DNA of 22,542 bases. It comes from a virus. Lineage: Duplodnaviria; Heunggongvirae; Uroviricota; Caudoviricetes. The stretch covers positions 1-22,542 of IMG/VR virus record IMGVR_UViG_3300014625_000037. One strand, 5' to 3'. The position numbers were made by a program, and so were the translations under genes. Below the pieces are notes generated by a model that made no database searches, was not told where the DNA came from, and worked only from the letters and a program-made list of their open reading frames with translations. Shown in pieces: positions 1 to 14,546 of the stretch (position 1 is its first letter; each line of letters begins with the position of its first letter).

Positions 1-789
1 GGTGAGTGCCGGACTCGACAGCGGTGCTTTTAGTGCCAGCGCATTGTTAATGGTGGTACTGAATTTCGGGTCATTGTTAATGGCTGCGGCAATTTCTTTC
101 AGTGTGTCCAGCGTGGCTGGCGCACCGTTAATCAGAGCAGTAATAGCGGCCTGAACAAACTCAGTGGTCGCAATCCGCGTGGTGTTATTTCCTGCTGCAG
201 GCGTCGGCGCTTTTGGTTCTCCGGTAAATGTCGGATTATGTTTCTGCGCATACTGGGTATGAGGATCTTGTGCGGCAATGTGGTTTCTCATCTGGTCATC
301 CACATACAGCTTTAATTCCAGGACTTCATCATCCACGTATTTACGGGTTGCCAGCACTACAGCAGGGTCGATTTTCAGGGTGATATTGTCCGTACTGCTG
401 GTAATCAGCACCATGCGCACGGTCTGGGTGCGCCCGCTGCCTTCAGCCAGTTGCGGCTTATAGCTTTCCGGGCAGTTGCCCACAGCAATCAATGCCCCGG
501 ACTCATCAAACAGGCCCACTTCACGTATCCACCAACCGCCCTCGTTTTCAGGGATCACCTGTTCAGCAATAATCTGGCTGCTGTTCTGCGGGTCGATGTA
601 CAGCATATTCAGCGCAGCCCGGCGTTTCTCATTTACTAATGCTGTCTGCTTTGCGTCCGGCGTTGGCAATGTTCCGCCGCCATCGCCTACCGCCATATGG
701 GTAATTTTTAAAGGCACACCGAGCGCGGCGGCGCTGGCAAGTTTCGCCGCGCCAATATCCGTCAGCAGGGTATAAAATTTTGTGCTCAT
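1..789 (-). CDS. H: Tail fiber protein H, N-terminal 263 codons only; gene continues beyond the left edge of the window
   Basis: Own translation of the minus strand from ATG at 789..787 gives MSTKFYTLLTDIGAAKLASAAALGVPLKITHMAVGDGGG..., matching my recollection of the conserved P2 gpH N-terminal domain. Open to the window edge. ATGA overlap with the stop of gene I. Not in the ORF track because it is truncated. Confidence 0.8.
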   Translation of the reverse strand, partial: MSTKFYTLLTDIGAAKLASAAALGVPLKITHMAVGDGGGTLPTPDAKQTALVNEKRRAALNMLYIDPQNSSQIIAEQVIPENEGGWWIREVGLFDESGALIAVGNCPESYKPQLAEGSGRTQTVRMVLITSSTDNITLKIDPAVVLATRKYVDDEVLELKLYVDDQMRNHIAAQDPHTQYAQKHNPTFTGEPKAPTPAAGNNTTRIATTEFVQAAITALINGAPATLDTLKEIAAAINNDPKFSTTINNALALKAPLSSPALT

Positions 790-1391
790 GGATTCACTCT
801 CATTGTGTCAATAACATGGACCGCCCCGCCTTCATGCGCGGTGCCGCCAGAAATAATTGTTTCGTTGATATACGGATAGATCGTGATTTCTTCGCCAAGA
901 TAGCTTGCAGCCCCCACCCAATATGGACCGCTGGTCTGCAGGTTGATGGACATGCCGATCATGTGGCGGCTACATGGTTTGGCATCGCTTATCAGTCGCT
1001 CAAGTTCCAGATAGGTATCTTCAGTGATGCCCTGGTCCTGCACGCCGATATCCAGACGAAACGTGCCCGGTGTTTCTCCGGTATGCCACCACTCAATAAT
1101 GCGGATCAGGAAGCCGAACGGCTCCACCACCCGCCGCACGGCACTGGTGGTCCCTTTATGCTGATGAATATAAAAAGCATCCTTCACCACCTGGCGCTTG
1201 ACGCTTTCTGTCCAGCTCTCGTCCCAGCGATCCACAGAGAACGCCCAGGCGAGATAAGGCAGGAAACTGACCGGACAGGTTGCCGGATTCCACAAGTCAC
1301 GCAGCGGCACCTGCAGATCAGTAATCCCGCTGCAGGTTTGCGCCAGTCGGCGCTCCAGTGAAGTTGAACCCGGTGGCAGCAGACTATTCAT
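786..1391 (-). CDS. I: Tail/baseplate protein I (P2 gpI-like)
   Basis: 201-aa ORF, ATG start, position between J and H as in P2; sequence resembles gpI family from memory. Confidence 0.8.
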   Translation of the reverse strand: MNSLLPPGSTSLERRLAQTCSGITDLQVPLRDLWNPATCPVSFLPYLAWAFSVDRWDESWTESVKRQVVKDAFYIHQHKGTTSAVRRVVEPFGFLIRIIEWWHTGETPGTFRLDIGVQDQGITEDTYLELERLISDAKPCSRHMIGMSINLQTSGPYWVGAASYLGEEITIYPYINETIISGGTAHEGGAVHVIDTMRVNP

Positions 1392-2292
1392 CCGTTCCTC
1401 CGTTGGTTACGCTCCACTGCGTACATGATGCCGCCTGTGTTTTGTTCAGGACCACATCCGCCAGCGGCGAAGCCAGCTCCACACGCTGCACACCCTCAAC
1501 ATGCAGGGCGGCAAAGATGGCGCTACGGCGAATATCCCGGCCAAGACGCGTCTGACTGGCGATGTACTTCTGCAGACTGGCTTTTGCCGCTGCCATTACC
1601 GGCTCTGCTTCCGGTCCCGGATAGAGAAAAATGGTGGCTTCCACGCGGTACGGGATGATTTCTGCGCTGCGAACCGTCAGACGGTCAGCCACCGGGCGGA
1701 CGTTCTCACTGTTCAGGGCGTTCTCCACCACATCCAGCAGGTCTTTTTCTGCTGTTCCGTCGCCTTCGCGGCTAAGGACAGTCAGTACCACCTCTGCAGG
1801 TGCCGGGCTGGTTGCACTGGCATCCGCCACCCGACCGTCGGCGCTTCGGGCATGAAATTCATAAGCTGCGGTTGGCCCCGCAACCGAAAGCCCTTCAAAA
1901 GCCGCAGGCACACGCAGGCGTAACGCTTCATCGCTTTCCATCACAGCAGCAACGGGTGGCACAGCGTCATTATCAGCAGGCGTCACCGTCAGGCGTTTCA
2001 CGTTGTAATTGGCAGCGAGCTGGTCCAGATCGCTCCCTATGGCATAAGCCACCATCACCGCCTGCGCGGCTTCGTTAATGCGCTGGCGCAGGAGCAACTC
2101 ACGATAAGCGTTCTCCTGCAACAATTTGGTAACGGGTTCAGATTCCAGTTCCAGCGTACGCATCACTGCTTCCTGCTCATCTTTCGGATGAAGCGCTACA
2201 AATTCTGCCTTGCGTTCGGCAAGCAGCGTCTCAAAGTCCGGCACATCCACAATCTGCGGCGCAGGTAACTGCGAAAGGTCAATCACTGCCAT
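1384..2292 (-). CDS. J: Baseplate assembly protein J
   Basis: 302-aa ORF, size and order (W-J-I-H) as in P2; overlaps W and I in operon fashion. Confidence 0.85.
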   Translation of the reverse strand: MAVIDLSQLPAPQIVDVPDFETLLAERKAEFVALHPKDEQEAVMRTLELESEPVTKLLQENAYRELLLRQRINEAAQAVMVAYAIGSDLDQLAANYNVKRLTVTPADNDAVPPVAAVMESDEALRLRVPAAFEGLSVAGPTAAYEFHARSADGRVADASATSPAPAEVVLTVLSREGDGTAEKDLLDVVENALNSENVRPVADRLTVRSAEIIPYRVEATIFLYPGPEAEPVMAAAKASLQKYIASQTRLGRDIRRSAIFAALHVEGVQRVELASPLADVVLNKTQAASCTQWSVTNGGTDE

Positions 2293-2638
2293 TCTCTGCT
2301 CCTGTTGATACGGAAAGGGACACAGGCACGCCGTTATTCCGCCGCCCGGTCAGCTCCACCACCATTGAACCGTCAAAATTGCTGTTGATGGTGATGGAAT
2401 CCAGCGTCAGCCGTGGCTCCCAGCGACTCAGCGCCACATACACTGCCGACATGACCTGCAGGCGTAACGCCGGATTTTGTGGCTGGTCTATCAGTGCCGA
2501 CAGCAGGGAACCATATTCACGGCGAGCAATGCGGCTACCCTGCGGCGTCAGCAGAATGTCCCGCACCGACTGGCGCAGATGGTCAATATCAGTAATGGCT
2601 TTACCGCTGGTATTGTTCATCCCGCTATAAAGCGTCAT
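2279..2638 (-). CDS. W: Baseplate protein W (gp25/GPW-like)
   Basis: 119-aa ORF between V and J; overlapping stop/start with V (ATGA-type). Confidence 0.8.
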   Translation of the reverse strand: MTLYSGMNNTSGKAITDIDHLRQSVRDILLTPQGSRIARREYGSLLSALIDQPQNPALRLQVMSAVYVALSRWEPRLTLDSITINSNFDGSMVVELTGRRNNGVPVSLSVSTGAENGSD

Positions 2639-3213
2639 ACCGGGCCTCCGGTTGTGTCGCCGCCTTTCAGGACGCCAGTATGCTGATGTGCATCAACCAC
2701 AATTCCGTTAGAACTCATTGCACCGCCGCCCTGGGTAACACCACCATTCATCACTACTTCGCTGTTAATACGCGTGCGGTCAGCCTCCAGCACAAACTCA
2801 CTGGTTTTCATGGTGATGTTGTCAGCGGCCTCAATGACCATTGATTTGATGCCCCTGACATACCAGCGCCCGGTGGCGGGTTCGTATTCAAACCGGCCAC
2901 CGTCAGGATGTTCTGTCACGCAGGCGTCCGCCGACGTCGACGGTGGCGCAAACTGATTCGAATAGATGGCGGGTAACGCAAAGGCGGTTTCCAGATTGCC
3001 GCCCAGACTCAGCAGCACCACCTGCTCACCTTCCGATGGTCGCCACCATGTGCGGGCATTCCCGGCACGCAGCGTCAGCCAACTGATCCAGTTGGTTTCA
3101 AGCTCGCCCGTTTTCACCCGGCAAAGCCAGTTTTCCCTGTCCACTTCGGTGACTACCCCTGTGCGGATCAGGTTGGTGATAAGGCGCATGATTTCGGTTA
3201 ATTGTGCGTTCAT
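2635..3213 (-). CDS. V: Baseplate spike/assembly protein V
   Basis: 192-aa ORF, ATG start at 3213; N-terminal region resembles P2 gpV from memory; first gene of the V-W-J-I-H block. Confidence 0.8.
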   Translation of the reverse strand: MNAQLTEIMRLITNLIRTGVVTEVDRENWLCRVKTGELETNWISWLTLRAGNARTWWRPSEGEQVVLLSLGGNLETAFALPAIYSNQFAPPSTSADACVTEHPDGGRFEYEPATGRWYVRGIKSMVIEAADNITMKTSEFVLEADRTRINSEVVMNGGVTQGGGAMSSNGIVVDAHQHTGVLKGGDTTGGPV

Positions 3214-3259
3214 TTCTAAAGTGTCTCACATTAGAATGTCCTATCATTGCGAAGAAATT

Positions 3260-3277
3260 TGTATGAATGAAGATACA
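3260..3277. promoter_or_regulatory. TGT-N12-ACA dyad (candidate Ogr/Delta-type late activator site) upstream of V
   Basis: Sequence TGTatgaatgaagatACA read directly; lies in the S-V intergenic where P2 has its PV late promoter. A dyad of this form is also expected by chance several times in 22 kb. Confidence 0.3.
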
Positions 3278-3290
3278 AAATGGAGATTGA

Positions 3291-4142
3291 ATGTTTACTG
3301 TTGGTATTTACGGCTTTACTCTAACAAAGATAACTCACTTTTCATTCGGGACAATGTATCCAATAGAAACCAGTTTTTTTAAATTAAAAAAATATAGACA
3401 AGACAAGGAAAAATTATATCTTACTGCGCTCCTTGAACTTGACATCATAGACAAGAGCGAAACAGATGATATCATATTTCATCTAGAGAAAATTTTGAGT
3501 TTTATAGAACAGAGAGCAGTATTTATCAGACACCAACTAAATAATAAGACTCATAAATTTGACTTACCCATAGATTTCCCTCTCTTTATAACTCCTAATA
3601 TTAACTTATCAAGTTCAGGAGAAATCATTCTTGAAGATTGCTTTTCCAAAAACTCAAGACGCTACTTTATTGAACTTGCTATAAATAAGATCATCATTGC
3701 TAGAGATCGACCATTTACCACAATACTTCATAAAAATGTATTGGTTTTCTCTAATCCAATAAATTATCTTGATGTATCATATTACTTACTTTTTTCCGGC
3801 CTTGAGTCATTAGTTCGAGAACGTGAGAATGATTTTAAATCAAACATTACGCCAATAATGTATCGTTACCTCAAAAAGCATGGGTTTAATATAAATCAAC
3901 AAAACAATAAACATCATGACATCTCACTTGATATTTACTGTAGCTTAAGGAACGCATTATTTCACAATGGTCAATTCCAAACCATGCCGATGAAAAGAGG
4001 CTCTAAAACAATCAGTTTTGCACTAAAGGATTTTTACTCACAATTTAAACGATTAAACTGCCTCGTCATATTAAAAGAAGCAGAATTCAGCGATCATCAT
4101 ATCAACTGGAATTTTAGTGATTATAGAAACCCTTTTATATAA
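3291..4142 (+). CDS. AT-rich moron: hypothetical 283-aa protein with C-terminal HEPN-like R-x4-H motif (candidate abortive-infection/RNase-type defence protein)
   Basis: ATG at 3291 preceded by GGAG (3282-3285). Opposite strand to all flanking late genes. Strongly AT-rich codon usage (Ile/Asn/Lys/Phe rich). Motif RNALFH at residues 220-225 (nt 3948-3965). Confidence 0.6.
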   Translation: MFTVGIYGFTLTKITHFSFGTMYPIETSFFKLKKYRQDKEKLYLTALLELDIIDKSETDDIIFHLEKILSFIEQRAVFIRHQLNNKTHKFDLPIDFPLFITPNINLSSSGEIILEDCFSKNSRRYFIELAINKIIIARDRPFTTILHKNVLVFSNPINYLDVSYYLLFSGLESLVRERENDFKSNITPIMYRYLKKHGFNINQQNNKHHDISLDIYCSLRNALFHNGQFQTMPMKRGSKTISFALKDFYSQFKRLNCLVILKEAEFSDHHINWNFSDYRNPFI

Positions 4143-4143
4143 C

Positions 4144-4590
4144 TCACCCTGACAACCAATGAAGTAAAATATCATGAGTGATGGCCTCTAACTCATCGTT
4201 GCTCCCCAACAACTGCCGCTCTGCGTACCGTACCTCCGGTCCTTTGCGACTGACGCGATCACGTAGGCCGTAATGGTGAACACGGGCAATTCGCTGCACC
4301 TTACCTTCAAACTGCACGCTGGCAGAGTCGGCGCTGGCGGCAGTTTTCAGGTATTTTGTGGTGCGCAGCTTTGCAAACATCTGACGTTTGATGCGCCCCT
4401 TCTTGCTGCGTGCTGTTACCCTGCGCGGTTCATAACTGCTGCCATCTGGATTGCGCTGCATCCTGATATTCTGCTGCTGTGTCCGGCGCAGTTCCTGCGC
4501 CAGCTGGCGCATCATGCGGCTTCTCGTGGCTGGTTCCAGATTCGCCAGTAAGGCACTCAGCCAGTCGTCCACCTTCTGCAGTTCAGCCAC
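4144..4590 (-). CDS. S: Tail completion / virion morphogenesis protein (P2 gpS family)
   Basis: 148-aa ORF; motif QRNPDGSSYEPRR...KKGRIKR...RIARVHHYGLRD is typical of the phage virion morphogenesis family as I recall it. Apparent GTG start at 4590 overlapping the endolysin stop. Confidence 0.7.
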   Translation of the reverse strand: MAELQKVDDWLSALLANLEPATRSRMMRQLAQELRRTQQQNIRMQRNPDGSSYEPRRVTARSKKGRIKRQMFAKLRTTKYLKTAASADSASVQFEGKVQRIARVHHYGLRDRVSRKGPEVRYAERQLLGSNDELEAITHDILLHWLSG

Positions 4591-5161
4591 GTTTCACCGT
4601 CCACATTTCTTCAGGTTCATCGGGTTCTGCTACAGCTTCAACGCTCGACACACTGCCGTCAGTGCTGACCAGCACACGTTCCGTCAGTTGCAGGTTATCC
4701 AGCCCCTGATTAAACACACCTTTTACATACACCCAGCGCGGCAACTGTCGGCACGCATCCGCCCAGCGCCGCTGATTGAGCAATTTCACCAGCGTGGAAC
4801 TGCAGGCATTGCCCGTTCCCACGTTGAAGGCAAACGACACTGCAGCGTCATACACCTTCTGCGGCGGCTGTTGCTTCACACACCTTTCCAGCGCCCGCTC
4901 CACACGCAGCACGTTGGAGATCAGCCCTTCCGCTGCATGTCGTTCCGTAATGGTTTTGCCCGGGATGACGCCCGATGTATTACCAATGCCGTCGGTCCAG
5001 ACACCCGCGCTGCACTGATACGGCTGCAGACGACAGCCTTCGTAATCAGCAATCAGTTTCAGCCCCTCCATGGAGGTGTGAAGCTGCTGAAAACCCGGCA
5101 GCGTGGCAGCAATAGCCAGCACGGTCCCGACAAGGCAGCGTTTAACGATTGATGGATTCAT
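4583..5161 (-). CDS. Endolysin, T4-lysozyme-like glycosidase with N-terminal signal-anchor-release (SAR) segment
   Basis: 192-aa ORF; strong RBS GGGAGG upstream of ATG 5161; hydrophobic N-terminal stretch LVGTVLAIAATL; catalytic spacing E41-x8-C50-x5-T56 (E-8-D/C-5-T signature). Confidence 0.8.
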   Translation of the reverse strand: MNPSIVKRCLVGTVLAIAATLPGFQQLHTSMEGLKLIADYEGCRLQPYQCSAGVWTDGIGNTSGVIPGKTITERHAAEGLISNVLRVERALERCVKQQPPQKVYDAAVSFAFNVGTGNACSSTLVKLLNQRRWADACRQLPRWVYVKGVFNQGLDNLQLTERVLVSTDGSVSSVEAVAEPDEPEEMWTVKRG

Positions 5162-5357
5162 AGTCCTCCCGCGAGATCTGCCCGTCGCGCAGAAGCTGGT
5201 AGGCTTTGTGTTTGTAGTACCAGTTGATAGCCAGCATCAGCACACCAATCATCAGGCCGCCCAGCGTTGAGGCATCCTTGATGGACAAATCGCCCAGCCA
5301 GGCCAGCACGACGGCGATGCAATACGTGATAAAGGCGCTGATTCGCTCAAGCGTCAT
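5142..5357 (-). CDS. Holin, small two-TMD type (pinholin-like)
   Basis: 71-aa ORF immediately upstream of the endolysin; two hydrophobic segments (ISAFITYCIAVVLAWLG, LGGLMIGVLMLAINWYY) and a charged C-terminus. Confidence 0.65.
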   Translation of the reverse strand: MTLERISAFITYCIAVVLAWLGDLSIKDASTLGGLMIGVLMLAINWYYKHKAYQLLRDGQISREDYESINR

Positions 5358-5360
5358 AAT

Positions 5361-5564
5361 TCAGTCCCATAGCTGGACGGTCTGCACGGTGGTGGTTGTC
5401 GGTATGTCCGGCAGCTCCACCTGCAGCCCGTGAGGTAAAAAGGGGCCGTATTCGGCAAGCCCCGGATTTGCCTTCAGTACCTGCTCCGTGACACCCTGCG
5501 TGCGCCCGTAATGACGCCAGCAAAGCGCGTCCACCGTGTCATACTGATACGCACGCACTTTCAT
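5361..5564 (-). CDS. X: Tail protein X
   Basis: 67-aa ORF, same length as P2 gpX and similar sequence from memory (...YGRT.GV.E.VL.ANPGLAE...LPHG..VELPD...). Confidence 0.85.
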   Translation of the reverse strand: MKVRAYQYDTVDALCWRHYGRTQGVTEQVLKANPGLAEYGPFLPHGLQVELPDIPTTTTVQTVQLWD

Positions 5565-6028
5565 CAGATAAGCTCCACTGTGCAGTGCGGCGCATCCTGC
5601 ACCCGGCTGATGGCCCAGCGGGCGTCACGCCATAAATCACCGCTTGCTTCCGCCAGTTCCTCGCCCCGCTTCACACCGGATGCCGTGGCGTCATAGTCCT
5701 GATAACGCTCGTTGAGCATGGCGCGTGCCCAGCAGTAAACCGCGTTGAAATAGTGATGAATGCGCTCACTTTTGCCGTCCAGCTGTTCCGCCGGAACCTC
5801 AGCCAGCGACGCATACCCCAGCATCTGCTGACGTCTGCGAAACTCATACAACTCTGCGTTGACCTCCGAAATTGCCGACAGGGCAGCCTGCTTTAAACGC
5901 GGCTGCGTCACCGTGCCGTCAGTGCGCATGACACTGCGAAACTCCGACAGGTCCACATCAGGCCAGAACGGCGTATTTCTAATGATTTCCGCCTGTTCCG
6001 GTGCCTGTTCTGGCGCAACAAACTTCAT
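5564..6028 (-). CDS. L: Head completion/stabilisation protein L
   Basis: Track ORF is 5564..6091 with a GTG start; I prefer ATG at 6028 with AGGAG 8 nt upstream (MKFVAPEQ...). Position between M and X as in P2. Confidence 0.75.
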   Translation of the reverse strand: MKFVAPEQAPEQAEIIRNTPFWPDVDLSEFRSVMRTDGTVTQPRLKQAALSAISEVNAELYEFRRRQQMLGYASLAEVPAEQLDGKSERIHHYFNAVYCWARAMLNERYQDYDATASGVKRGEELAEASGDLWRDARWAISRVQDAPHCTVELI

Positions 6029-6123
6029 GCTGCTTTCTCCTGAAATAGAGGGCGGTGGACGGGGTTTTGATGTGGCAGTGCCTTTCGCCACCCCGTGCCG
6101 CCCGTGCGCGGGGGCACGTTCTG

Positions 6124-6774
6124 TCAGCGGCTGTCATTGCGCAGTCTGCGCTCCAGCTGCTGTTTGTCTTTTTTCACGCCACAGCGGGGATCGAGCTGTA
6201 ACGCATGGTTGAGATGATTAAGGGCGGAAGCCGGGTTGCTTTCACTCAGGACAGCGCCAATCGCTTTATGCAGACGCGCCCGTGACTGGTCCGGCATATC
6301 CAGACCGTCTGTCAGCTCCAGCGTCTGCAGCAACAGATCGGCATCAAAGCCGGTGGCGGCAAGCATTGCGCTCTGCGCCGCGTCTGCCATTTCCTCTGCC
6401 AGCACGGTCTGCACATTGCGGTTACCCAGCGGCATCACCCAGCCATGACGCAGGGCGTGATGCCCGATCTCCAGCGCCCCGGCATAATCTCCGGCATCAA
6501 TGCGCCACAGCATCACGTACATCAGCACGTCATCCTGTTGAGCGCCTCCAGCAGCCAAGACGCCCTCCGCCCAGGCGGCGTACTTCGGCAGCAGCTCCAC
6601 TTTGATTTCCGCTTTTTTGACCGTGGACTGAACGCCCTTGAGACGGCGGCGGTCTTCCGCCAGTTGCAGCAGCATCAGGTCATAGCCCGACGCGTGGCGA
6701 ACACTGCCGCCCTCGCGGGCGGCCTGTTCAGCCTGAACGCGCAGGCGATGCTGCCGTGCGGGACTCAGGCTCAT
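6124..6774 (-). CDS. M: Terminase small (endonuclease) subunit M
   Basis: 216-aa ORF downstream of N, order O-N-M-L as in P2. Confidence 0.8.
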   Translation of the reverse strand: MSLSPARQHRLRVQAEQAAREGGSVRHASGYDLMLLQLAEDRRRLKGVQSTVKKAEIKVELLPKYAAWAEGVLAAGGAQQDDVLMYVMLWRIDAGDYAGALEIGHHALRHGWVMPLGNRNVQTVLAEEMADAAQSAMLAATGFDADLLLQTLELTDGLDMPDQSRARLHKAIGAVLSESNPASALNHLNHALQLDPRCGVKKDKQQLERRLRNDSR

Positions 6775-6777
6775 GAA

Positions 6778-7836
6778 TTACGCTCCGGTTTCTGCGGCGG
6801 CGGCGCTGAAGTCGCCAATCTGGATGTTTTCCACCAGTGCGGCGCAGCGGTAGTCCTCAACCACATAGGCTTCGTTAACGGATTCAAAGTTTTCAATCCG
6901 GTCACGTTTCGGGTTGTCGATAACTGAACGGCGGCGGGTGTCTTCCTGCCAGTAGATGGACAGGTTATCCAGACGGGTGATCAGCAGTGCATTCGGCGGG
7001 AAGAATGGCGCACGCACGGCCTGCAGGCCGCCCATGCGTTTCTGACTGATGATCATATCGGCAGCCAGTTTTTCACTGTTTTCCTGCTCTTTGTTGACCA
7101 GCGGGAAATACTTGTCAGACAGCAGTTCACGACCGCAAATCACCACCAGATCGTCATCGTCCTGGTAGACCACATCGATAAGTTCATTGACAGCATCCAT
7201 CACCACGGCGTCCAGGTTAGCATATTCGCCACCTTTCCCGACTTTCACCGCACCCGGAGTGGTTTCACCGCCCGTGGTGGTGCTGCCCATGACGTGATCC
7301 GGTGCATCCTCACGGATTTTTTGCAGCCAGCCTTTGTTCACATCCTGCAGCAACGGGTTTTCACTACGGTTGGAGGTTTTCGCACGCTTCACGCCGTTAA
7401 AGCCGATCATGATGCGGTCCAGTGCCTGACGTTTCACGATGGCGTCACGGATACGCACCTGGAAATCCTGAAACTTCGCCCACAGGTCCAGCTTCGCGTA
7501 GGTCAGCACCGTGTCAAAGTTGGTCTGCTCGCATTTATATTCCACATCGACCATCAGCGTCGGATCGACAGGCTCACGCTCTTTCGCGGTGGTGTCAGTG
7601 GTTCCGGCAATGGTGCTGCCAACACCCAGCCCCAGCAACTGACCGGACTGCTCAGTCACTGGCGTGACGTTAATCAGCGTCAGGAAGGCGGCGGACTGCT
7701 GGATCTGGTCTTCCAGCGTCTGCTGCACAGACGGCTCCACAGTGAATTTGCTGGACAGTTCTTCAACTGCCACACCGTTCAGACGCGCCAGCTGCTGCAG
7801 GTAAGCGTTAAAAGCAAAGCGGGTATTCTTCTTCAT
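6778..7836 (-). CDS. N: Major capsid protein N
   Basis: 352-aa ORF, size and position match P2 gpN. Confidence 0.85.
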   Translation of the reverse strand: MKKNTRFAFNAYLQQLARLNGVAVEELSSKFTVEPSVQQTLEDQIQQSAAFLTLINVTPVTEQSGQLLGLGVGSTIAGTTDTTAKEREPVDPTLMVDVEYKCEQTNFDTVLTYAKLDLWAKFQDFQVRIRDAIVKRQALDRIMIGFNGVKRAKTSNRSENPLLQDVNKGWLQKIREDAPDHVMGSTTTGGETTPGAVKVGKGGEYANLDAVVMDAVNELIDVVYQDDDDLVVICGRELLSDKYFPLVNKEQENSEKLAADMIISQKRMGGLQAVRAPFFPPNALLITRLDNLSIYWQEDTRRRSVIDNPKRDRIENFESVNEAYVVEDYRCAALVENIQIGDFSAAAAETGA

Positions 7837-7852
7837 CGGGTTTTGTGCTCCA

Positions 7853-8686
7853 TCAGCAATTGGTCAGAGTGTCAGCGGGGGCGTTACCGCCTGTTGCACG
7901 CTGGCGGTAGTCCTGGCGGCTGTCTTCATGACTCAGCTTGTCCACCAGTTCGTTAAAGGCGGTCTGCTGTGCCTGCAGGGCAGTCTCCAGCTCAGACAGG
8001 CGTTCTTCCTGCTCAGACAGGGATTTTTCGGTGCGTGCGCTCAGGTTCTGCTGCTCAGTGGCGACCAGCTCCACGGCCTTATGCACATCAGAGAACCGGG
8101 CGTCATCGGACTGCTCTTTTTTGGTAAACAGCGCCGTGACGCGGGCAAACAGGGACGGTTTGTCGTCCTGGACTTCTTCCAGTTCGATCACCGTTTCCTC
8201 TGCAGCGGTAAAAAGATTGGCGGGATTCTGCTTGCGGTTTGCCAGCGGGTTATGGGCTGCACTGGCGCTGAATGTCAGCATTTCCGTACCCAGACTGGCG
8301 GGATCATCAGTGGCAGCCAGGCCGACCAGATAGGCTTTGCCCGTATCAGCGAACTTCGGGCTGACTTCCATAGAGGTGAATAATTTCTGGCCTTTTTTCA
8401 CCAGTTCCACCAGGGACTCCGTTGGCTCAACGTCGGCATACAGCGCCATCTTGCCTGCCAGCGGACCTTCCGTGATTTCTTCAGCAAACAGCGCCGTCAC
8501 CTTGCCGTAGCGGTTAAAGGTGCTGTCCGGCAGATAAGACTTGATGTGCTCAAGGTTAATCAGCGCGGTATACACCGCCGGGTTGTAGCTGGCTGCCATC
8601 TGTTCCAGCCATTCACGCTGGATTTCGCGTCCGTCGGTGGTGGCACCTTCCACCCCGATGCGAAAACGCTTTGCTTTCACTGTCAT
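7853..8686 (-). CDS. O: Capsid scaffolding protein O
   Basis: 277-aa ORF; N-terminus (FRIGVEG...DGR.I....) and Ala/Glu/Gln-rich coiled-coil C-terminus ending ...TNC resemble P2 gpO. Confidence 0.85.
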   Translation of the reverse strand: MTVKAKRFRIGVEGATTDGREIQREWLEQMAASYNPAVYTALINLEHIKSYLPDSTFNRYGKVTALFAEEITEGPLAGKMALYADVEPTESLVELVKKGQKLFTSMEVSPKFADTGKAYLVGLAATDDPASLGTEMLTFSASAAHNPLANRKQNPANLFTAAEETVIELEEVQDDKPSLFARVTALFTKKEQSDDARFSDVHKAVELVATEQQNLSARTEKSLSEQEERLSELETALQAQQTAFNELVDKLSHEDSRQDYRQRATGGNAPADTLTNC

Positions 8687-8764
8687 GAGCCGTGCTCCGT
8701 TAGAAAAAACTTACTGGAGCCTTATGGTTGCGGTGATAGGGGCAGTGAAACAATGCGCGGTATT

Positions 8765-8782
8765 TGTACCGACAACCACACA
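8765..8782. promoter_or_regulatory. TGT-N12-ACA dyad in the divergent O/P late promoter region
   Basis: TGTaccgacaaccacACA read directly; centred about 85 nt upstream of the O start codon in the O-P intergenic region. Confidence 0.35.
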
Positions 8783-8828
8783 AACCGCAGGCGGGGAAAG
8801 CCTTCATTCAAGGCTGTAGGTTTGTGCC

Positions 8829-10595
8829 ATGAACACCACACTGACACCCGCAGATCTCGATCCCCGTCGGCAGGCCATGCTGCTGTACTTTCAGGGATAC
8901 CGCGTCGCCCGCATTGCTGAAATGCTGGGCGAGAAAGTTGCAACCGTTCACAGCTGGAAAAAACGCGACAAGTGGGGTGACTATGGGCCGCTGGATCAGA
9001 TGCAGCTCACCACCGCCGCACGCTACTGCCAGCTCATTATGAAGGAGCACAAAGAAGGGAAAGATTTCAAAGAGATTGACCTGCTGGCGCGCCAGTCGGA
9101 GCGCCACGCGCGGATCGGCAAGTTTAACAATGGCGGCAACGAAGCCGACTTAAACCCTAACGTCGCCAACCGCAACAAAGGCCCACGCCGTCAGCCGGAA
9201 AAGAATGTTTTCACCGATGAGCAGATTGAGAAGCTGGAAGAAATCTTCCATTCCTCCATGTTCAACTACCAGCGCCACTGGTGGGAAGCCGGAAAAACCA
9301 ACCGCATCCGCAACCTGCTGAAGTCACGCCAGATCGGCGCGACCTTTTACTTTGCCCGTGAAGCCCTGATTGACGCTCTGCTTACCGGACGTAACCAGAT
9401 TTTCCTTTCTGCCAGTAAGGCACAGGCCCACGTCTTCAAACAGTACATCATCGACTTTGCCAAAGAAGTGGAGGTGGAGCTGAAAGGCGATCCGATGGTG
9501 CTTCCCAACGGGGCCACACTGTATTTCCTCGGAACCAATGCCCGCACGGCCCAGAGTTACCACGGCAACCTGTATCTGGATGAATATTTCTGGATACCGA
9601 AATTCCAGGAGCTGCGCAAAGTGGCTTCCGGTATGGCTATTCACAAAAAATGGCGACAAACCTATTTTTCCACGCCATCCAGCCTGACCCACAGTGCTTA
9701 TCCGTTCTGGTCCGGTGCGCTGTTCAACCGTGGACGCAACAAAGCTGACAAGGTGGACATCGACCTGTCCCACAGCAATCTGGCCCCCGGCCTGCTGTGC
9801 GCAGACGGGCAATACCGCCAGATAGTCACCGTGGAAGATGCGGTGCGCGGCGGCTGTAACCTGTTCGACCTCGACCAGCTACGCATGGAGTACAGCCCGG
9901 ACGAATACCAGAACCTGCTGATGTGCGAGTTCGTGGACGATCTCGCGTCCGTGTTCCCGCTCAGCGAACTGCAGGCGTGCATGGTGGACAGTTGGGAAGT
10001 CTGGACCGACTTTCATGCACTGGCCCTGCGCCCGTTTGGCTGGCGCGAGGTGTGGATCGGTTATGACCCGGCAAAAGGTACGCAGAACGGCGACAGCGCC
10101 GGATGCGTGGTGGTGGCACCGCCAGCCGTGCCAGGCGGTAAGTTTCGCATTCTTGAGCGTCACCAGTGGCGCGGGATGGACTTCCGCGCCCAGGCGGACG
10201 CCATCAAAAAACTGACCGAACAGTACAACGTGACCTATATCGGCATCGACTCGACAGGTGTCGGTCACGGGGTTTACGAGAACGTGAAAGCGTTTTTTCC
10301 AGCCGTCCGGGAGTTTGTCTACAACCCCAACGTTAAAAACGCCCTGGTACTCAAGGCCTACGACATTATCAGCCACCGCCGTCTGGAGTTTGACGCCGGA
10401 CACACCGACATAGCGCAGTCATTTATGGCAATCCGTCGCGCCACCACCGCCAGCGGCAACCGCCCGACCTATGAAGCCAGCCGCAGCGAAGAAGCCAGCC
10501 ACGCCGATCTGGCCTGGGCAACGATGCACGCTCTGTTTAACGAACCGCTGCAGGGCGAATCCGCCAATACCAGCAATATTGTGGAGATTTTTTGA
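8829..10595 (+). CDS. P: Terminase large (ATPase) subunit P
   Basis: 588-aa ORF; strong resemblance to P2 gpP along its length as I recall it (RRQAMLLYFQG...NPNVANRNKGPRRQPE...SRQIGATFYFAREAL...SEE.SHADLAWATMHAL). Confidence 0.9.
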   Translation: MNTTLTPADLDPRRQAMLLYFQGYRVARIAEMLGEKVATVHSWKKRDKWGDYGPLDQMQLTTAARYCQLIMKEHKEGKDFKEIDLLARQSERHARIGKFNNGGNEADLNPNVANRNKGPRRQPEKNVFTDEQIEKLEEIFHSSMFNYQRHWWEAGKTNRIRNLLKSRQIGATFYFAREALIDALLTGRNQIFLSASKAQAHVFKQYIIDFAKEVEVELKGDPMVLPNGATLYFLGTNARTAQSYHGNLYLDEYFWIPKFQELRKVASGMAIHKKWRQTYFSTPSSLTHSAYPFWSGALFNRGRNKADKVDIDLSHSNLAPGLLCADGQYRQIVTVEDAVRGGCNLFDLDQLRMEYSPDEYQNLLMCEFVDDLASVFPLSELQACMVDSWEVWTDFHALALRPFGWREVWIGYDPAKGTQNGDSAGCVVVAPPAVPGGKFRILERHQWRGMDFRAQADAIKKLTEQYNVTYIGIDSTGVGHGVYENVKAFFPAVREFVYNPNVKNALVLKAYDIISHRRLEFDAGHTDIAQSFMAIRRATTASGNRPTYEASRSEEASHADLAWATMHALFNEPLQGESANTSNIVEIF

Positions 10596-11665: not shown

Positions 11666-12670
11666 TTATTCTTCTGAATCATCATAAACATCCATTCCTT
11701 CGGTCTGATTTCTAATATAAGAAGCCCCCATAGAATTAGCAATCGCAGTCCGAATTAACCCTACATGAGTGAAAAACACCCCTAACCTAGCACGCTTTAA
11801 CTCAGACTCATCATCATAGTCATCTTCATTACTTATAATTCTTCTAACCATTGCCTTATCTTCGTCAATAGCCGAAGGTAGCCCACTCTTTAAAGCGTCA
11901 ATACACTCACCTACAGTTATAATTTTATTTTTAATTAATTCAGAAAGCAAATCATCATAATTTTCATCATCAGATTTATTATCAGGTGGTAATTCACTTG
12001 CAGCTATCATTTTCAGCAATTCTACGTCAAGCATAGTTCCTCTATCTAGTCTGCTTGTCTCAACATACCCCTCACGCTCTGATAACACTCTTTCAAATTC
12101 GAAATCAACGACTTCAAGCAAAGCAGATACTCTATTAATTGCTCGCCTAAGAGGAAGTGGAACACTTTGCTCTTTTTTGTATTGCAGTTTATGAGATGCT
12201 GCAGCCCAAATATGCTGAGAAAGCGTTCGTATTTGCACCTCCACTTTCATATTTTTAAAATCACTAAAGGATGGAACTCTTAGCCATTCTTCTGGAGGTT
12301 GTATTACATAATGATGAGATTGGTACCCAAATCTATCCTCATCCAGTTCATCAAGTTTATTCTCTTGCTTCAAAATAATGAAATGTTCTTTCAGACAAGA
12401 TATAACCTTTTCAACATCTCGCTTAAATAGCATTATTAATCGGATTCCAACATAATCATCCAAGTCAACTATTGACTCAATCTTTAGAGGTTTTCGGTTA
12501 TCCTTATTAATAATAGAACTTAATGTTTTGACACGGCTTTCAATTGGAACCCCTAAAGACAATTTATTCTCCGACAAAATAACATCAATTTGCTCAACCA
12601 TAACTCGTCTGAACAATTCCGCAACTGAGCCGTAAATTGAATGCTGTTCTTTTAATTCTTCGTCTGTCAT
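11666..12670 (-). CDS. RelA/SpoT-domain nucleotidyltransferase, 334 aa (candidate fused toxSAS/CapRel-like defence protein or small alarmone synthetase)
   Basis: ATG at 12670 with AGGTAAGA upstream. Synthetase-domain motifs RVKTLSS (46-52), DYVGIRL (72-78), GYQSHH (115-120), EVQIRTLSQHIWAAASH (144-160). C-terminal ~150 aa acidic domain without obvious motif. AT-rich. No adjacent small ORF. Confidence 0.75.
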   Translation of the reverse strand: MTDEELKEQHSIYGSVAELFRRVMVEQIDVILSENKLSLGVPIESRVKTLSSIINKDNRKPLKIESIVDLDDYVGIRLIMLFKRDVEKVISCLKEHFIILKQENKLDELDEDRFGYQSHHYVIQPPEEWLRVPSFSDFKNMKVEVQIRTLSQHIWAAASHKLQYKKEQSVPLPLRRAINRVSALLEVVDFEFERVLSEREGYVETSRLDRGTMLDVELLKMIAASELPPDNKSDDENYDDLLSELIKNKIITVGECIDALKSGLPSAIDEDKAMVRRIISNEDDYDDESELKRARLGVFFTHVGLIRTAIANSMGASYIRNQTEGMDVYDDSEE

Positions 12671-12787
12671 CTATCTTACCTAACTTATATAAATGAATCA
12701 GATATAAAACATTGCATAATTTTAATTCAAGTGGACAACATATAAATTATCCGATCTAAACCACTTAAACAACAGGTTTTGCGCGCG

Positions 12788-12806
12788 CTCGTATCCCCGC
12801 CACGCC
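12788..12806. other. Candidate cos (cohesive end) site
   Basis: Minus-strand reading GGCGTGGCGGGGATACGAG shares its first 13 nt with the 186/P2 cohesive-end sequence as I remember it (GGCGTGGCGGGGAAAGCAT); a short inverted repeat cccgcc/ggcggg lies nearby at 12857-12874. Confidence 0.4.
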
Positions 12807-12966
12807 TGCCCGCTTTATGTAGCGGTTTTCATGCGCCTGCATGACATAAGCAAAATCCCGCCACTCCTGGCGGGCCTCAGCTAAAACGATCCTCAAACGA
12901 TCATGCGGATTCATGCGGCATAGACATGCACAATCTCCAAAGCGAGCATCGAGACTTTTTGGAAAC

Positions 12967-13578
12967 CTACGTAACCACAGTTAATGTGTGCATCCTGTCT
13001 CGAATTGCATCACACGTCTCATCAAAAAGCTTGATGATGGTTGTATGGTTCAACTCCGCCTCTTTCCAATAATTTTGCCCGTCAAATTCTGGATCGCTAT
13101 GCTTAAACGATATTGACTCTGAAAGGCATTCCTTCCGGAAACGGTCCAAGATTATATAAACCTCTGGTGAGATGAACGGTTTGTTAGATTCAACACTTGT
13201 AACAAAAGTGTTAAATGCATCAGAAAAAACTTTCAACCTTCTAAATTTTCTCTCTTCAAATGGTTCGTTGGGGTCAACATGATCCAGCGCAGGCCTCAGC
13301 TTAAGCACGCTTTCTCTGGTTTCAAACATCGAATTCCAAATGAGACTATATGCTGATAACTCCTTATCAAAATACGCTTTCGTTACATAAACAGAATTGT
13401 CTAACTTAGCCTTTATTCTTTCATTAGTTGCACTCAGTTGTGATTGAAATTCAGCAATATCTTTGTTTAGCCGCGACTTATATCTTTCTAAATAAACTTT
13501 CCCGATCCAAACAAATATGCCAGATGCAACAAAAGACACCCCACCCAACGAAGCCAGAACTTTAAAGACTAAATCCAT
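12967..13578 (-). CDS. Hypothetical membrane-anchored protein, 203 aa (single N-terminal TM helix)
   Basis: ATG at 13578; N-terminal hydrophobic segment VLASLGGVSFVASGIFVWIG followed by a ~170-aa soluble domain; AT-rich; sits beside cos at the position P2 uses for old/tin. Confidence 0.65.
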   Translation of the reverse strand: MDLVFKVLASLGGVSFVASGIFVWIGKVYLERYKSRLNKDIAEFQSQLSATNERIKAKLDNSVYVTKAYFDKELSAYSLIWNSMFETRESVLKLRPALDHVDPNEPFEERKFRRLKVFSDAFNTFVTSVESNKPFISPEVYIILDRFRKECLSESISFKHSDPEFDGQNYWKEAELNHTTIIKLFDETCDAIRDRMHTLTVVT

Positions 13579-13626
13579 TGCGCCCCCACCTGCAAAAATA
13601 GTATTCCATTATAAGCTAATACATTT

Positions 13627-13842
13627 TTAATCAAACAGGGGATAATTCGCGTCAACCTCATCACTTCTCTGCTCTACCCTAGTGACTTCCATCAAAAACC
13701 CCAGGCCGTCATATAGCGAAACGGGGAATTCCAGCTCAAGCCAGAAGCAGTCTTCATAGATGCGGCCCAACCAAAAACCTCCGCCACACTCCTTTGGGCG
13801 TTGAAAGAAGACCCAGTCGCCAAGGGTTAAACGTTCCAGCAC
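13627..13842 (-). CDS. Questionable 71-aa ORF (GTG start)
   Basis: Only a GTG start; no convincing RBS found; could be a gene remnant. Confidence 0.2.
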   Translation of the reverse strand: MLERLTLGDWVFFQRPKECGGGFWLGRIYEDCFWLELEFPVSLYDGLGFLMEVTRVEQRSDEVDANYPLFD

Positions 13843-13960
13843 CTAGCCCCGATAAATAATCTGGTGATTACTGTCTTTTTTACCCATGGCTAACGCCTCG
13901 CTACTCTCGTTGTTCAACCTTGCTGACGTCAGATTCAAGTTCTTACATCAGGAACGTTCC

Positions 13961-14194
13961 TTAGTGCAGCCAGCTGTCGTCTTCCCAAACCTGTTGCATA
14001 ATTTCCATCACCCGCTTTTTGTCTTCATCAAGCTTTAAGCCACTCAGCTCAACGCCGTTTGCCGACCCTTTACGGATGCGGATAGCGGTCTTGGGATAGA
14101 TGGGTTGCAGGTTGCGGTAAAGCTCGGACTCCAGAGCGTCCAGGGTAGACTGGCTAATCTTCTGCTCTTTATCGATCATTATTTCAATGCGCAT
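13961..14194 (-). CDS. DinI-like protein
   Basis: Preferred start MRIEIMID... at ATG 14194 with GAGGTGA upstream; 77 aa; N-terminus and C-terminal ...EIMQQVWEDDSW resemble E. coli DinI (MRIEVTIAK...ILQETWESADDW) from memory. Confidence 0.75.
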   Translation of the reverse strand: MRIEIMIDKEQKISQSTLDALESELYRNLQPIYPKTAIRIRKGSANGVELSGLKLDEDKKRVMEIMQQVWEDDSWLH

Positions 14195-14204
14195 AAAAGT
14201 CACC

Positions 14205-14393
14205 TCAGCTGATGACATCCATTGAGCGGTTGTATTCGTGGCTTCTGATTTTTGCCATGAGTTCATCAGTCAATTCAGAAACCCACTGCAGGGCCAGCCC
14301 CTTCTCTTCATCACTACACTCACTAGCCGCTACAAGCTTAAGAAAAAAATCAATGCGCTGGAGCTTCAAAGACTCCAAAAAATAGTCCTGCAT
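14205..14393 (-). CDS. Small hypothetical protein (62 aa), first gene of SOS-regulated operon; possible antirepressor
   Basis: ATG at 14393 preceded by TAGGAGGAAAG; the longer track ORF (to 14495) would place the LexA box inside the coding sequence, so it is rejected. Confidence 0.55.
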   Translation of the reverse strand: MQDYFLESLKLQRIDFFLKLVAASECSDEEKGLALQWVSELTDELMAKIRSHEYNRSMDVIS

Positions 14394-14434
14394 CTTTCCT
14401 CCTATGACACCGCAAACAATACTGTATAGATAAC

Positions 14435-14454
14435 CACTGTTTATATTTACAGTA
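14435..14454. promoter_or_regulatory. LexA (SOS) box
   Basis: cACTGTttatatttACAGTa read directly; matches consensus TACTGT-N8-ACAGTA (CTGT-N8-ACAG). Lies 42-61 nt upstream of the small ORF start on the transcribed strand, overlapping candidate -10 TATACT. Confidence 0.7.
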
Positions 14455-14546
14455 TATGATAATCTTACTGATGTAAAACGTTTTTTTACGTTCATCAGCC
14501 TGATATGCCTGGTATTATTAAGAGCACGAATTGTTAACCCGCGTAA

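What the first reader, a model, noticed from the sequence alone, without database searches (positions are those of the whole stretch)
4144..5357. Pinholin-like holin plus SAR endolysin, with no spanin or gpR tail-completion gene where P2 has them
The 71-aa two-TMD holin paired with an endolysin bearing an N-terminal signal-anchor segment and an E-8-C-5-T catalytic core suggests a pinholin/SAR-endolysin lysis system rather than the P2 Y/K type. The endolysin is followed immediately by S: the lysA/lysB/lysC and R genes found at this point in P2 are absent. Either this lineage has a different layout (R and spanin elsewhere) or a deletion has made the prophage defective.
Basis: partly seen in the sequence, partly recalled or inferred. 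Interest (0 to 1): 0.45.

Follow-up and report, generated by a model that had tools for sequence, protein, structure and literature searches.

The report
Deletion-crippled lysis/tail junction of P2-like prophage
The missing spanin and tail-completion genes are explained by a single 1,265-base deletion that fused the phage's endolysin gene to the tail end of gene R, leaving an ordinary defective E. coli prophage; the one surprise is that at least eleven other, independent deletions in related prophages start at the same three-base spot.

Summary
On the minus strand, gene X is followed by a 71-aa two-TMD holin (5142-5357), a 192-aa lysozyme ORF (4583-5161) and gene S (4144-4590), with no lysA/lysB/lysC/R.

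The cause is a deletion, not another gene layout. An E. coli prophage (strain LR9-2) is 99.9% identical on both sides and carries holin, endolysin (170 aa), a LysA-like membrane protein, LysB, LysC, R and S. The window lacks exactly 1,265 bp, joined at a 5-bp microhomology (TAACC).

The "endolysin" is therefore an in-frame chimera of endolysin residues 1-156 and the last 36 residues of gpR. The spanins and gpR (annotated essential in P2) are gone, so the prophage is predicted to be defective.

The SAR-endolysin reading holds: the ORF has the Cys pattern of P1 Lyz. "Pinholin" is not supported: the holin belongs to the HP1 family and its TMD1 is strongly hydrophobic.

The exact junction was found only in one human bile metagenome.

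Unexpectedly, at least 11 further independent deletions in related prophages, one of them in a RefSeq chromosome, begin within the same GGA^TA^ACC in the endolysin gene and end at different downstream genes. I could not explain this recurrent breakpoint.

The parts
5142..5357 (-). Class II (two-TMD) holin, 71 aa, HP1 holin family
   Evidence: PF16080 4.3e-9, above the cut-off; P21 S family PF04971 below its cut-off. phrog_20 holin 1.9e-26. Hydropathy peaks at residues 6-22 and 28-45. 98.6% identical to the holin of phage 500465-1.
4583..5161 (-). Chimeric ORF, 192 aa: SAR endolysin residues 1-156 fused in frame to gpR residues 108-143
   Evidence: Translation compared with the relatives' endolysin and R. 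tblastn gives endolysin 1-161 at 5161-4679 and R 107-143 at 4696-4586. The PHROG 'tail terminator' profile hits residues 156-190 of the ORF.
4694..5161 (-). Endolysin-derived part (codons 1-156). GH24 lysozyme with an N-terminal SAR-type segment (codons 9-24, 5090-5137) and the E41/C43/C50/T56 core (4994-5041). The native last 14 codons are lost.
   Evidence: PF00959 residues 39-156, profile positions 2-120 of 125. P1 Lyz 1XJT 7.1e-23, with ...EGCRxxPYxCxAGVWTDGIGNT aligned. The lost C-terminal residues (RRxRE...WCL.G) are conserved in 24 homologues.
4693..4697 (.). Deletion junction: 5-bp microhomology TAACC on the coding strand (GGTTA on +). 1,265 bp are missing relative to intact relatives.
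   Evidence: blastn against LR9-2 gives window 1-4697 = L005 2902-7598 and window 4693-9135 = L005 8859-13301. Parental sequences are shown. It is 4 bp (AACC) against phage 500465-1.
4583..4693 (-). Relic of gene R (the last 36 codons plus the stop), keeping the native 8-nt overlap with the start of S
   Evidence: The full-length R of LR9-2 matches PF06891 P2_Phage_GpR at 3.7e-48.
4144..4590 (-). Gene S (tail completion / virion morphogenesis), 148 aa, intact
   Evidence: PF05069 4.4e-40. TIGR01635 9.8e-34. Same length as in relatives.
5361..5564 (-). Gene X (tail protein X), the upstream neighbour of the lysis cassette
   Evidence: PF05489 5.8e-34.

Best explanation
The window is the head, lysis and baseplate half of a P2-like (Peduoviridae, Wadgaonvirus-like) E. 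coli prophage assembled from a human bile metagenome.

In the intact lineage the late O operon reads X, holin, SAR endolysin, LysA-like membrane protein, LysB (i-spanin), LysC (o-spanin), R, S. Here one illegitimate-recombination event between two TAACC pentamers removed 1,265 bp. The lost DNA comprises the last 14 codons of the endolysin, all of the LysA-like gene, lysB and lysC, and the first 107 codons of R. The event fused endolysin codon 156 in frame to R codon 108.

Shown: the deletion, its junction, the chimera, and the absence of spanin and R coding capacity in the window.

Inferred: on induction the prophage could still make heads, baseplates, holin and perhaps an impaired endolysin. 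It could not complete tails, because R is annotated as an essential tail-completion gene in P2. It could not disrupt the outer membrane, because it has no spanin. It is therefore a recently inactivated, non-plaque-forming prophage.

The native lysis chemistry of the lineage is inferred to follow P1 Lyz. A Sec-exported, membrane-tethered SAR endolysin is held inactive, with the catalytic Cys50 caged by Cys43. It is activated by Cys9 when the holin depolarises the membrane.
For: The E. coli LR9-2 prophage (NZ_CM188245.1) is identical to the window except for 2 mismatches in 4,697 bp on one side and 4 in 4,443 bp on the other. It carries the same rare AT-rich cargo gene between S and V, and it has the full set holin/lysozyme(170 aa)/DNZ54_00345/LysB/LysC/R/S. 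The only structural difference is the 1,265 bp.

The same extra DNA is present in the 30 listed phage-record matches, each of which spans about 2,750 bp for about 1,484 query bases (annotations). In the 25 best E. coli genome matches the extra DNA is 889 bp, because that lineage lacks the LysA-like gene.

The relatives' proteins match NCBIfam LysB (1.1e-51), P2_Rz1/LysC (4.1e-30) and Pfam GpR (3.7e-48). None of them is encoded anywhere in the window except R residues 107-143, which are in frame with the endolysin.

All other late genes in the window have the same lengths as in the relatives.

The P2 reference record annotates R as 'essential tail gene; tail completion' and K as essential for lysis.

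The chimera is encoded identically in two independent assemblies of run SRR1920922, the ENA MEGAHIT k127 contig and the Logan contig. A 5-bp repeat is far shorter than any assembler k-mer.
Against: The contig ends in gene H, so the distal tail genes of this prophage were not seen. A second copy of R or lysBC elsewhere in the cell, for example on another P2-like prophage, cannot be excluded and could complement in trans. E. coli genomes with this endolysin have a median of 2 matching places.

Read-level support and the ratio of deleted to intact copies in the sample were not examined.

Whether the chimeric endolysin is active is unknown. The AlphaFold model was uninformative (pLDDT 37).
Confidence: 0.92

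Rival explanations
1. The deletion is not a random decay event. It is one instance of a recurrent, site-directed breakpoint: something nicks, breaks or stalls DNA at GGA^TA^ACC in codons 155-156 of this endolysin gene. The end is then joined to variable downstream sites using 0-8 bp of microhomology.
For: Twelve independent deletions share the left end and have different right ends. These are: R aa107 (the window), LysB aa94, LysB aa117, S about aa37, I aa140, E aa45, T aa720, U aa33, D aa231, D aa265 and D about aa267, the last in the RefSeq chromosome NZ_CM128601.1. They sit in different SNP backgrounds, and several were seen in 2-4 separate sequencing runs.

All junctions can be placed between reference positions 14336|37 and 14338|39.

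Among the deletion chimeras with breaks in codons 135-170, 11 of 15 fall in one 9-nt stretch (binomial 1.3e-9).
Against: I found no mechanism. There is no Chi site in the late region and no significant DNA hairpin (z -0.5). The site does not resemble the P2 ori nick site or this phage's ori equivalent. The phage invertase crossover sites have a different 12-2-12 geometry.

The sample is biased, because it was found through a protein search that ranks late breakpoints first. An unbiased IMG/VR sample of 118 loci contained no hot-spot deletion.

Other endpoints also recur (M aa180-182, D aa258-268), so clustering may be a general sequence-context effect.
Confidence: 0.4
2. The lineage naturally lacks lysA/lysB/lysC/R at this position, with R and the spanins elsewhere or dispensable. 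The pinholin/SAR pair would then be a complete lysis system.
For: None was found. The only point in its favour is that the distal tail region is not on the contig.
Against: A 37-residue gpR C-terminus is fused in frame to the endolysin. A 99.9%-identical prophage has the genes. No phage, viral-contig or species-representative genome shares the junction. It occurs in none of the 5,426 complete E. coli genomes.
Confidence: 0.02
3. The junction is an assembly or library artefact of the metagenome and the real prophage is intact.
For: The exact chimera occurs in only one sequencing run. Metagenome contigs can be chimeric.
Against: Two different assemblers (MEGAHIT k127 in ENA; Logan) produced the same junction on contigs of 53.6 and 11 kb. 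The shared sequence is 5 bp, too short to mislead a de Bruijn graph. Junctions of the same kind are inherited in several isolate genomes, including a RefSeq chromosome where PGAP calls the lysozyme 'incomplete, missing C-terminus'.
Confidence: 0.04
4. The deletion was selected (domestication). The host keeps the prophage's defence cargo and immunity while losing the ability to be lysed and to release phage.
For: The prophage carries likely defence cargo: a HEPN protein between S and V, and a RelA/SpoT-like protein in the old/tin position. Many relatives with the same breakpoint are multiply deleted but keep head genes, the holin and ogr.
Against: The variant is seen in a single sample, and its flanks differ from an intact relative by only 6 SNPs in 9.1 kb. 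That fits a very recent, possibly neutral event. Selection cannot explain base-level coincidence of breakpoints.
Confidence: 0.15

Closest known systems
E. coli LR9-2 prophage (NZ_CM188245.1), Escherichia phage 500465-1 (NC_049342, Wadgaonvirus) and Klebsiella phage KP12 contig OM835953
   Same: 95-99.9% nucleotide identity across the late genes. The holin and endolysin (residues 1-156) are the same, as are S, V, W, J and I. LR9-2 also shares the HEPN cargo gene between S and V.
   Different: They carry the 1,265 bp that encode the endolysin C-terminus, the LysA-like DNZ54_00345 protein, LysB, LysC and the first 107 codons of R. The window does not.
Phage P2 lysis and tail-completion block Y-K-lysA-lysB-lysC-R-S (NC_001895)
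   Same: The operon position is the same (after X, before S/orf30/V). The intact relatives have LysB/LysC spanins and R/S in the same order. There is a non-essential, oppositely oriented cargo ORF between S and V, as with P2 orf30.
   Different: P2 Y (93 aa, 6716-6997) and K (165 aa, 6997-7494) are longer and shorter, respectively, than this 71-aa HP1-family holin and 170-aa P1-Lyz-like SAR endolysin (lengths). They were not compared directly here. From memory, K is a soluble endolysin. In the window the lysA-R part is deleted.
P1 Lyz SAR endolysin (PDB 1XJT/1XJU; Xu et al. 2005, cited from memory and via PMC9902359)
   Same: GH24 fold family. An N-terminal Gly/Ala/Thr-rich signal-arrest-release segment that contains a Cys (C9 here, C13 in P1). 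An E-G-C-R-x-x-P-Y-x-C-x-A-G-V-W-T core identical in pattern.
   Different: Only about 45% identical. Here the conserved C-terminal 14 residues are replaced by 36 residues of gpR. Disulfide isomerisation and membrane release were not tested.
P21 S21 pinholin / R21 SAR endolysin pair
   Same: A small (71 aa) two-TMD holin directly upstream of, and overlapping, a SAR endolysin gene.
   Different: The holin is in a different Pfam family (HP1; the P21 S match is below threshold). TMD1 is strongly hydrophobic rather than SAR-like, and there is no Met1/Met4 dual start. P1 shows that SAR endolysins also work with canonical holins (established knowledge).
Nick-site-anchored deletion hot spots of rolling-circle replicons (M13 and pC194 origins; Michel and Ehrlich 1986, from memory)
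   Same: One deletion endpoint is fixed to within a few bases. The other is variable, with little or no homology.
   Different: No nickase site was identified here. The P2-type ori nick sequence is unrelated.

Membership tests
SAR endolysin, P1 Lyz type (GH24) | GH24 lysozyme domain with an E-x8-(D/C)-x5-T catalytic triad | tested here: met
   PF00959 2.8e-36. E41, C50 and T56 align with the P1 Lyz core in 1XJT, 7.1e-23. E41, C50 and T56 are invariant in 25 homologues.
SAR endolysin, P1 Lyz type (GH24) | N-terminal weakly hydrophobic, Gly/Ala/Ser/Thr-rich TMD that acts as a signal-arrest-release domain | tested here: inconclusive
   Residues 10-24, LVGTVLAIAATLPGF, are 47% Gly/Ala/Ser/Thr but have Kyte-Doolittle 1.91, which is not weakly hydrophobic. 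The KP12 orthologue was modelled with a conserved SAR helix (PMC9902359). Release from the membrane cannot be tested with these tools.
SAR endolysin, P1 Lyz type (GH24) | Regulatory cysteines: one in the SAR segment, plus a caging Cys two residues after the catalytic Glu | tested here: met
   C9, C43 and C50 correspond to P1 Lyz C13, C44 and C51 (alignment; P1 numbering from memory). C9 and C50 are invariant and C43 is at least 90% conserved.
SAR endolysin, P1 Lyz type (GH24) | Complete catalytic domain, including the conserved C-terminal helix | tested here: not met
   The last 14 native residues (RRAREMAWCLQGAN) are replaced by gpR sequence. These residues are conserved in homologues. The Pfam match stops at profile position 120 of 125.
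Pinholin (P21 S21 type) | Small holin with two TMDs | tested here: met
   71 aa, with hydropathy peaks at 6-22 and 28-45.
Pinholin (P21 S21 type) | TMD1 is itself a weakly hydrophobic SAR domain that leaves the bilayer | tested here: not met
   TMD1 (ISAFITYCIAVVLAWLG) has Kyte-Doolittle 2.12 and 35% Gly/Ala/Ser/Thr. In the P21 S sequence, recalled from memory, TMD1 does not reach 1.2. This is sequence-level only.
Pinholin (P21 S21 type) | Membership of the P21 holin S family (PF04971) | tested here: not met
   23.2 bits against the cut-off of 26. The significant family is PF16080, the HP1 holin.
Pinholin (P21 S21 type) | Forms nanometre-scale heptameric pinholes that depolarise the membrane but do not pass the endolysin | not testable with these tools
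   The published heptamer model of the KP12 orthologue (peg.320) had low confidence, pLDDT 50.8 (PMC9902359).
P2-type lysis and tail-completion module | Two-component spanin LysB/LysC downstream of the endolysin | tested here: not met
   tblastn best E is 0.62 for LysB, with no hit for LysC, in the whole window. Both are present in relatives (TIGR03495 1.1e-51; NF038368 4.1e-30).
P2-type lysis and tail-completion module | Full-length gpR (PF06891) immediately upstream of gpS | tested here: not met
   Only R residues 107-143 remain, fused to the endolysin. S is intact.
Defective prophage generated by internal deletion | A near-identical intact relative, a junction with short microhomology, and truncation of an essential gene | tested here: met
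   LR9-2 is 99.9% identical on both flanks and the junction is TAACC. R is annotated essential in P2.

The most novel reading that the evidence does not exclude
Codons 155-156 of this endolysin gene (GGA^TA^ACC) are a hot spot for a site-specific DNA nick or break, or for replication stalling. It repeatedly seeds one-sided deletions of 0.7 to 14.5 kb that inactivate P2-like prophages of E. coli. That would be a sequence-programmed route of prophage decay. The responsible activity (host nuclease, phage enzyme or defence system) is unknown.
Probability: 0.35. Interest if true: 0.6.

Novelty: new member of a known kind. Interest (0 to 1): 0.33.

Why it matters
As posed, the finding is ordinary. 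It is a recently deleted, defective P2-like prophage, and the unusual gene order needs no new biology. It is a useful caution for annotation, because the 192-aa "lysozyme" is a fusion protein and would be mis-annotated as an intact endolysin.

The part worth following is the recurrent breakpoint. If independent deletions in many E. coli lineages really start at the same three bases, prophage inactivation is not purely random at this locus. The site would then be a tractable handle on how illegitimate recombination is initiated in vivo. It could also serve as a marker for scoring defective P2-like prophages, which act as helpers for P4-like satellites and carry defence hotspots.

Tried and rejected
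1. A different gene layout. Rejected: an R relic is fused in frame, and the nearest relative is intact.

2. Spanin or R genes elsewhere in the window. tblastn found none.

3. The junction shared with other genomes. It gave 0 exact hits in GTDB species representatives and 0 in IMG/VR. The 4 hits in JGI metagenomes share only 27 bp and are chance matches. No complete E. coli genome has it.

4. Hot-spot mechanisms.
- Chi/RecBCD: there is no GCTGGTGG on either strand of the late region of the reference.
- DNA hairpin or cruciform: the fold is not better than shuffles, z -0.52.
- Pseudo-ori for the HUH nickase gpA: the P2 nick site GCGCCTC|GGAGTCC and the window's equivalent at about 14951 are unrelated to the hot spot.
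- Cin/Pin-type invertase quasi-site: the real crossover sites are TTCTCACATACC-TT-GGTTTGGGAGAA. The hot spot lacks the 12-2-12 geometry, and the junctions lie 3-5 nt away from where the core would be.
- The 10-mer CTGGATAACC occurs three times on the coding strand (endolysin, N, A). All three copies encode Leu-Asp-Asn, and the other two copies are not deletion endpoints.
- Resemblance to a DnaA box, an IHF site or the type I-E CRISPR repeat was judged by eye only. It was weak and I did not pursue it.

5. Two IMG/VR loci (L047, L105) that looked like hot-spot deletions are unrelated sequences with a chance 17-mer match.

6. The AlphaFold model of the chimera was uninformative (pLDDT 36.8 with a shallow alignment). 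It says nothing about folding.

Full report
WHAT IS IN THE WINDOW

The window is a P2-like prophage. On the minus strand lie O (7853-8686), N, M, L, X (5361-5564), a 71-aa ORF (5142-5357), a 192-aa ORF (4583-5161), S (4144-4590), then V, W, J and I. P and Q are on the plus strand. The replication and immunity genes and an integrase lie at the right end.

Pfam assigns the 71-aa ORF to the HP1 holin family (PF16080, 4.3e-9), the 192-aa ORF to Phage_lysozyme (2.8e-36), and the next ORF to the gpS family (4.4e-40). The lysozyme ORF overlaps S by 8 nt.

THE CAUSE IS A DELETION

A megablast of 4000-5700 against phage records gave 58 matches. In all 30 listed, the query aligns in two pieces that span about 2,750 bp of the record for about 1,484 query bases. 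The annotated relatives are Escherichia phage 500465-1 and Klebsiella phage KP12. They read X, holin (71 aa), endolysin (170 aa), a 125-aa membrane protein, i-spanin, o-spanin, R (143 aa), S.

The closest relative was found through the AT-rich gene next to S. The prophage of E. coli LR9-2 (NZ_CM188245.1) matches window 1-4697 with 2 mismatches and window 4693-9135 with 4 mismatches. Its only structural difference is 1,265 extra bp.

On the coding strand the parents read ...GGGGCTGGATAACC|GCCGTG (endolysin) and ...CAGCCTTAACC|TGCAAC (R). The window reads ...GGGGCTGGATAACCTGCAAC. This is a join within a 5-bp microhomology, TAACC.

The deletion is 2 mod 3 and restores the frame. The 192-aa ORF is therefore endolysin 1-156 plus gpR 108-143, and it retains R's native stop and overlap with S. 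Independent support:
- tblastn places R 107-143 at 4696-4586 (E 2.8e-20) and finds no LysA-like, LysB or LysC coding capacity anywhere in the window.
- A PHROG "tail terminator" profile hits residues 156-190 of the "endolysin".
- The relatives' proteins are bona fide LysB (TIGR03495, 1.1e-51), LysC (NF038368, 4.1e-30) and GpR (PF06891, 3.7e-48).

HOW WIDESPREAD IS THIS JUNCTION

The exact chimera is on record only in run SRR1920922, a human bile metagenome. It appears there in both the ENA MEGAHIT assembly (contig of 53.6 kb) and the Logan assembly.

The junction is absent from 185,579 species-representative genomes and from IMG/VR. The four JGI contigs that hold the 22-mer share only 27 bp with the window and are chance matches. 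In the complete E. coli genomes, all 25 best matches are two pieces separated by the missing genes.

With only 6 SNPs in 9.1 kb relative to an intact prophage, this is a very recent event. An assembly artefact is unlikely, because two assemblers agree and the repeat is only 5 bp.

CONSEQUENCES (INFERRED)

The P2 reference record annotates R as "essential tail gene; tail completion", K as essential for lysis, and lysA/lysB/lysC as non-essential modulators of lysis. From established knowledge, spanins are needed to disrupt the outer membrane under non-shearing conditions. The prophage should therefore be unable to form plaques unless R is supplied in trans.

The endolysin has lost 14 C-terminal residues that are conserved in homologues. 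Its activity is uncertain, and the structure prediction of the chimera was uninformative.

All other late genes in the window keep their normal lengths. The contig ends in H, so the distal tail genes were not seen.

THE LYSIS SYSTEM OF THE LINEAGE

The SAR-endolysin reading is supported. The best solved relative is P1 Lyz (1XJT, 7.1e-23), and the core ...YEGCRLQPYQCSAGVWTDGIGNT aligns with P1's ...AEGCRRDPYMCPAGVWTDGIGNT. This gives E41, C43, C50 and T56, plus C9 in the N-terminal segment LVGTVLAIAATLPGF. That is the pattern of the P1 disulfide-isomerisation switch. A published study of the KP12 orthologue reached the same view and saw lytic spots with the purified protein (PMC9902359).

"Pinholin" is not supported. 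The match to the P21 S family is below Pfam's threshold. TMD1 is strongly hydrophobic (Kyte-Doolittle 2.12), whereas the TMD1 of P21 S, whose sequence I recalled from memory, does not register as a hydrophobic peak. There is a single start codon. The safest description is a class II holin of the HP1 family with unknown hole size.

AN UNEXPECTED RECURRENT BREAKPOINT

Searching the chimera against 5.8 billion proteins returned many other "endolysins" that are 95-99% identical up to ...VFNQGLD and then diverge. I fetched their DNA and aligned it to phage 500465-1. Independent deletions have their left end at reference 14336-14344, within GGCTGGATAACC. Their right ends are as follows:
- LysB aa94 (708 bp)
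- LysB aa117
- S about aa37
- I aa140 (seen in three separate runs)
- E aa45
- T aa720 (two runs)
- U aa33
- D aa231 (an NCBI draft; the contig is seen in 4 samples)
- D aa265

A composite query against complete genomes found one more, in the RefSeq chromosome of E. coli E300010. There PGAP annotates the lysozyme as "incomplete ... missing C-terminus" after exactly 155 codons, and it is joined to D about aa267, followed by ogr and ybjL.

With the window's R aa107 event, that makes twelve events. Microhomology ranges from 0 to 8 bp. All twelve can be placed between 14336|37 and 14338|39, that is GGA^TA^ACC.

Within codons 135-170 I found only four deletion breakpoints elsewhere (aa137, 143, 152, 165). 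Eleven of fifteen in 9 of 108 nt has a binomial probability of 1.3e-9.

Caveats:
- The sample was ascertained through the endolysin N-terminus.
- Each event is rare. The S-type and D231-type junctions are absent from 5,426 complete genomes.
- An unbiased set of 118 IMG/VR loci contained none.
- Other endpoints also recur, at M aa180-182 and D aa258-268.

I tested and could not support Chi/RecBCD, a hairpin, a pseudo-ori for gpA, or an invertase quasi-site. The cause is unexplained.

VERDICT

The finding is a real feature with an ordinary explanation: a deletion-inactivated P2-like prophage. The SAR endolysin is a correct call, although this type had already been noted for this lineage. The pinholin call is unsupported. 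The recurrent breakpoint is the only element that might be new.

Noticed in passing
[not shown]
   Followed up: partly
window 11666-14500 (-), between Q and the DinI-like/A genes: An AT-rich cargo region lies at the P2 old/tin hotspot. It holds a 334-aa RelA/SpoT-domain protein (PF04607 7.6e-20; PADLOC candidate PDC-S33 1.8e-16) at 11666-12670. It also holds a 203-aa ORF, with what looks by eye like an N-terminal TM segment (phrog_26391, unknown function), at 12967-13578. The LR9-2 relative carries SIR2 plus an ATP-binding protein beside the same RelA/SpoT gene.
   Followed up: partly
window 16919-17749 (-): A 276-aa ORF sits between the Dam-like methylase and the replication gene A. It is absent from the LR9-2 prophage: the alignment is interrupted at window 16845-17824. 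It has no significant hit in Pfam or NCBIfam.
   Followed up: no
Relatives of window 4583-5161 (proteins P0030-P0096): Dozens of database 'endolysins' of 276-300 aa are 1-nt frameshift fusions of the endolysin to the LysA-like membrane protein, at the run CGCGGGAG (...NRRARRWPG...). Others shift at CAGGGGC (...NQGWITAVRG...). Several come from chromosome-sized NCBI contigs. They could be homopolymer sequencing errors or real alleles. Both G-runs flank the deletion hot spot.
   Followed up: partly
window 4693-4702, 6963-6972, 15221-15230 (all on the - strand): The 10-mer CTGGATAACC occurs three times on the coding strand, in the endolysin, N and A genes, and never on the other strand. About 0.02 copies per strand are expected. 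Each copy encodes Leu-Asp-Asn in frame. Only the endolysin copy is a deletion endpoint.
   Followed up: partly
L012, L014-L016, L018-L020, L065, L140, L143, L146 (reference L017 coordinates): Other deletion endpoints in decayed P2-like prophages also recur. These are M aa180-182 (three events), D aa258-268 (four events, two of them joined to the endolysin hot spot), N aa199-201 and P aa393-395. Most of the decayed copies seen with host flanks sit at the rcdA(ybjK)/ybjL attachment site and retain D'-ogr.
   Followed up: partly
L017 (NC_049342.1) and OM835953.1: The RefSeq 'phage' record 500465-1 contains an IS21-like insertion near gene A and about 10 kb of host genes (smpB, recN, grpE, ffh). 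It is therefore a prophage excerpt rather than a virion genome. The KP12 record is one 'partial' contig of a multi-contig assembly that also carries a second, T1-like lysis cassette. Neither is clean evidence that this lineage forms plaques.
   Followed up: no
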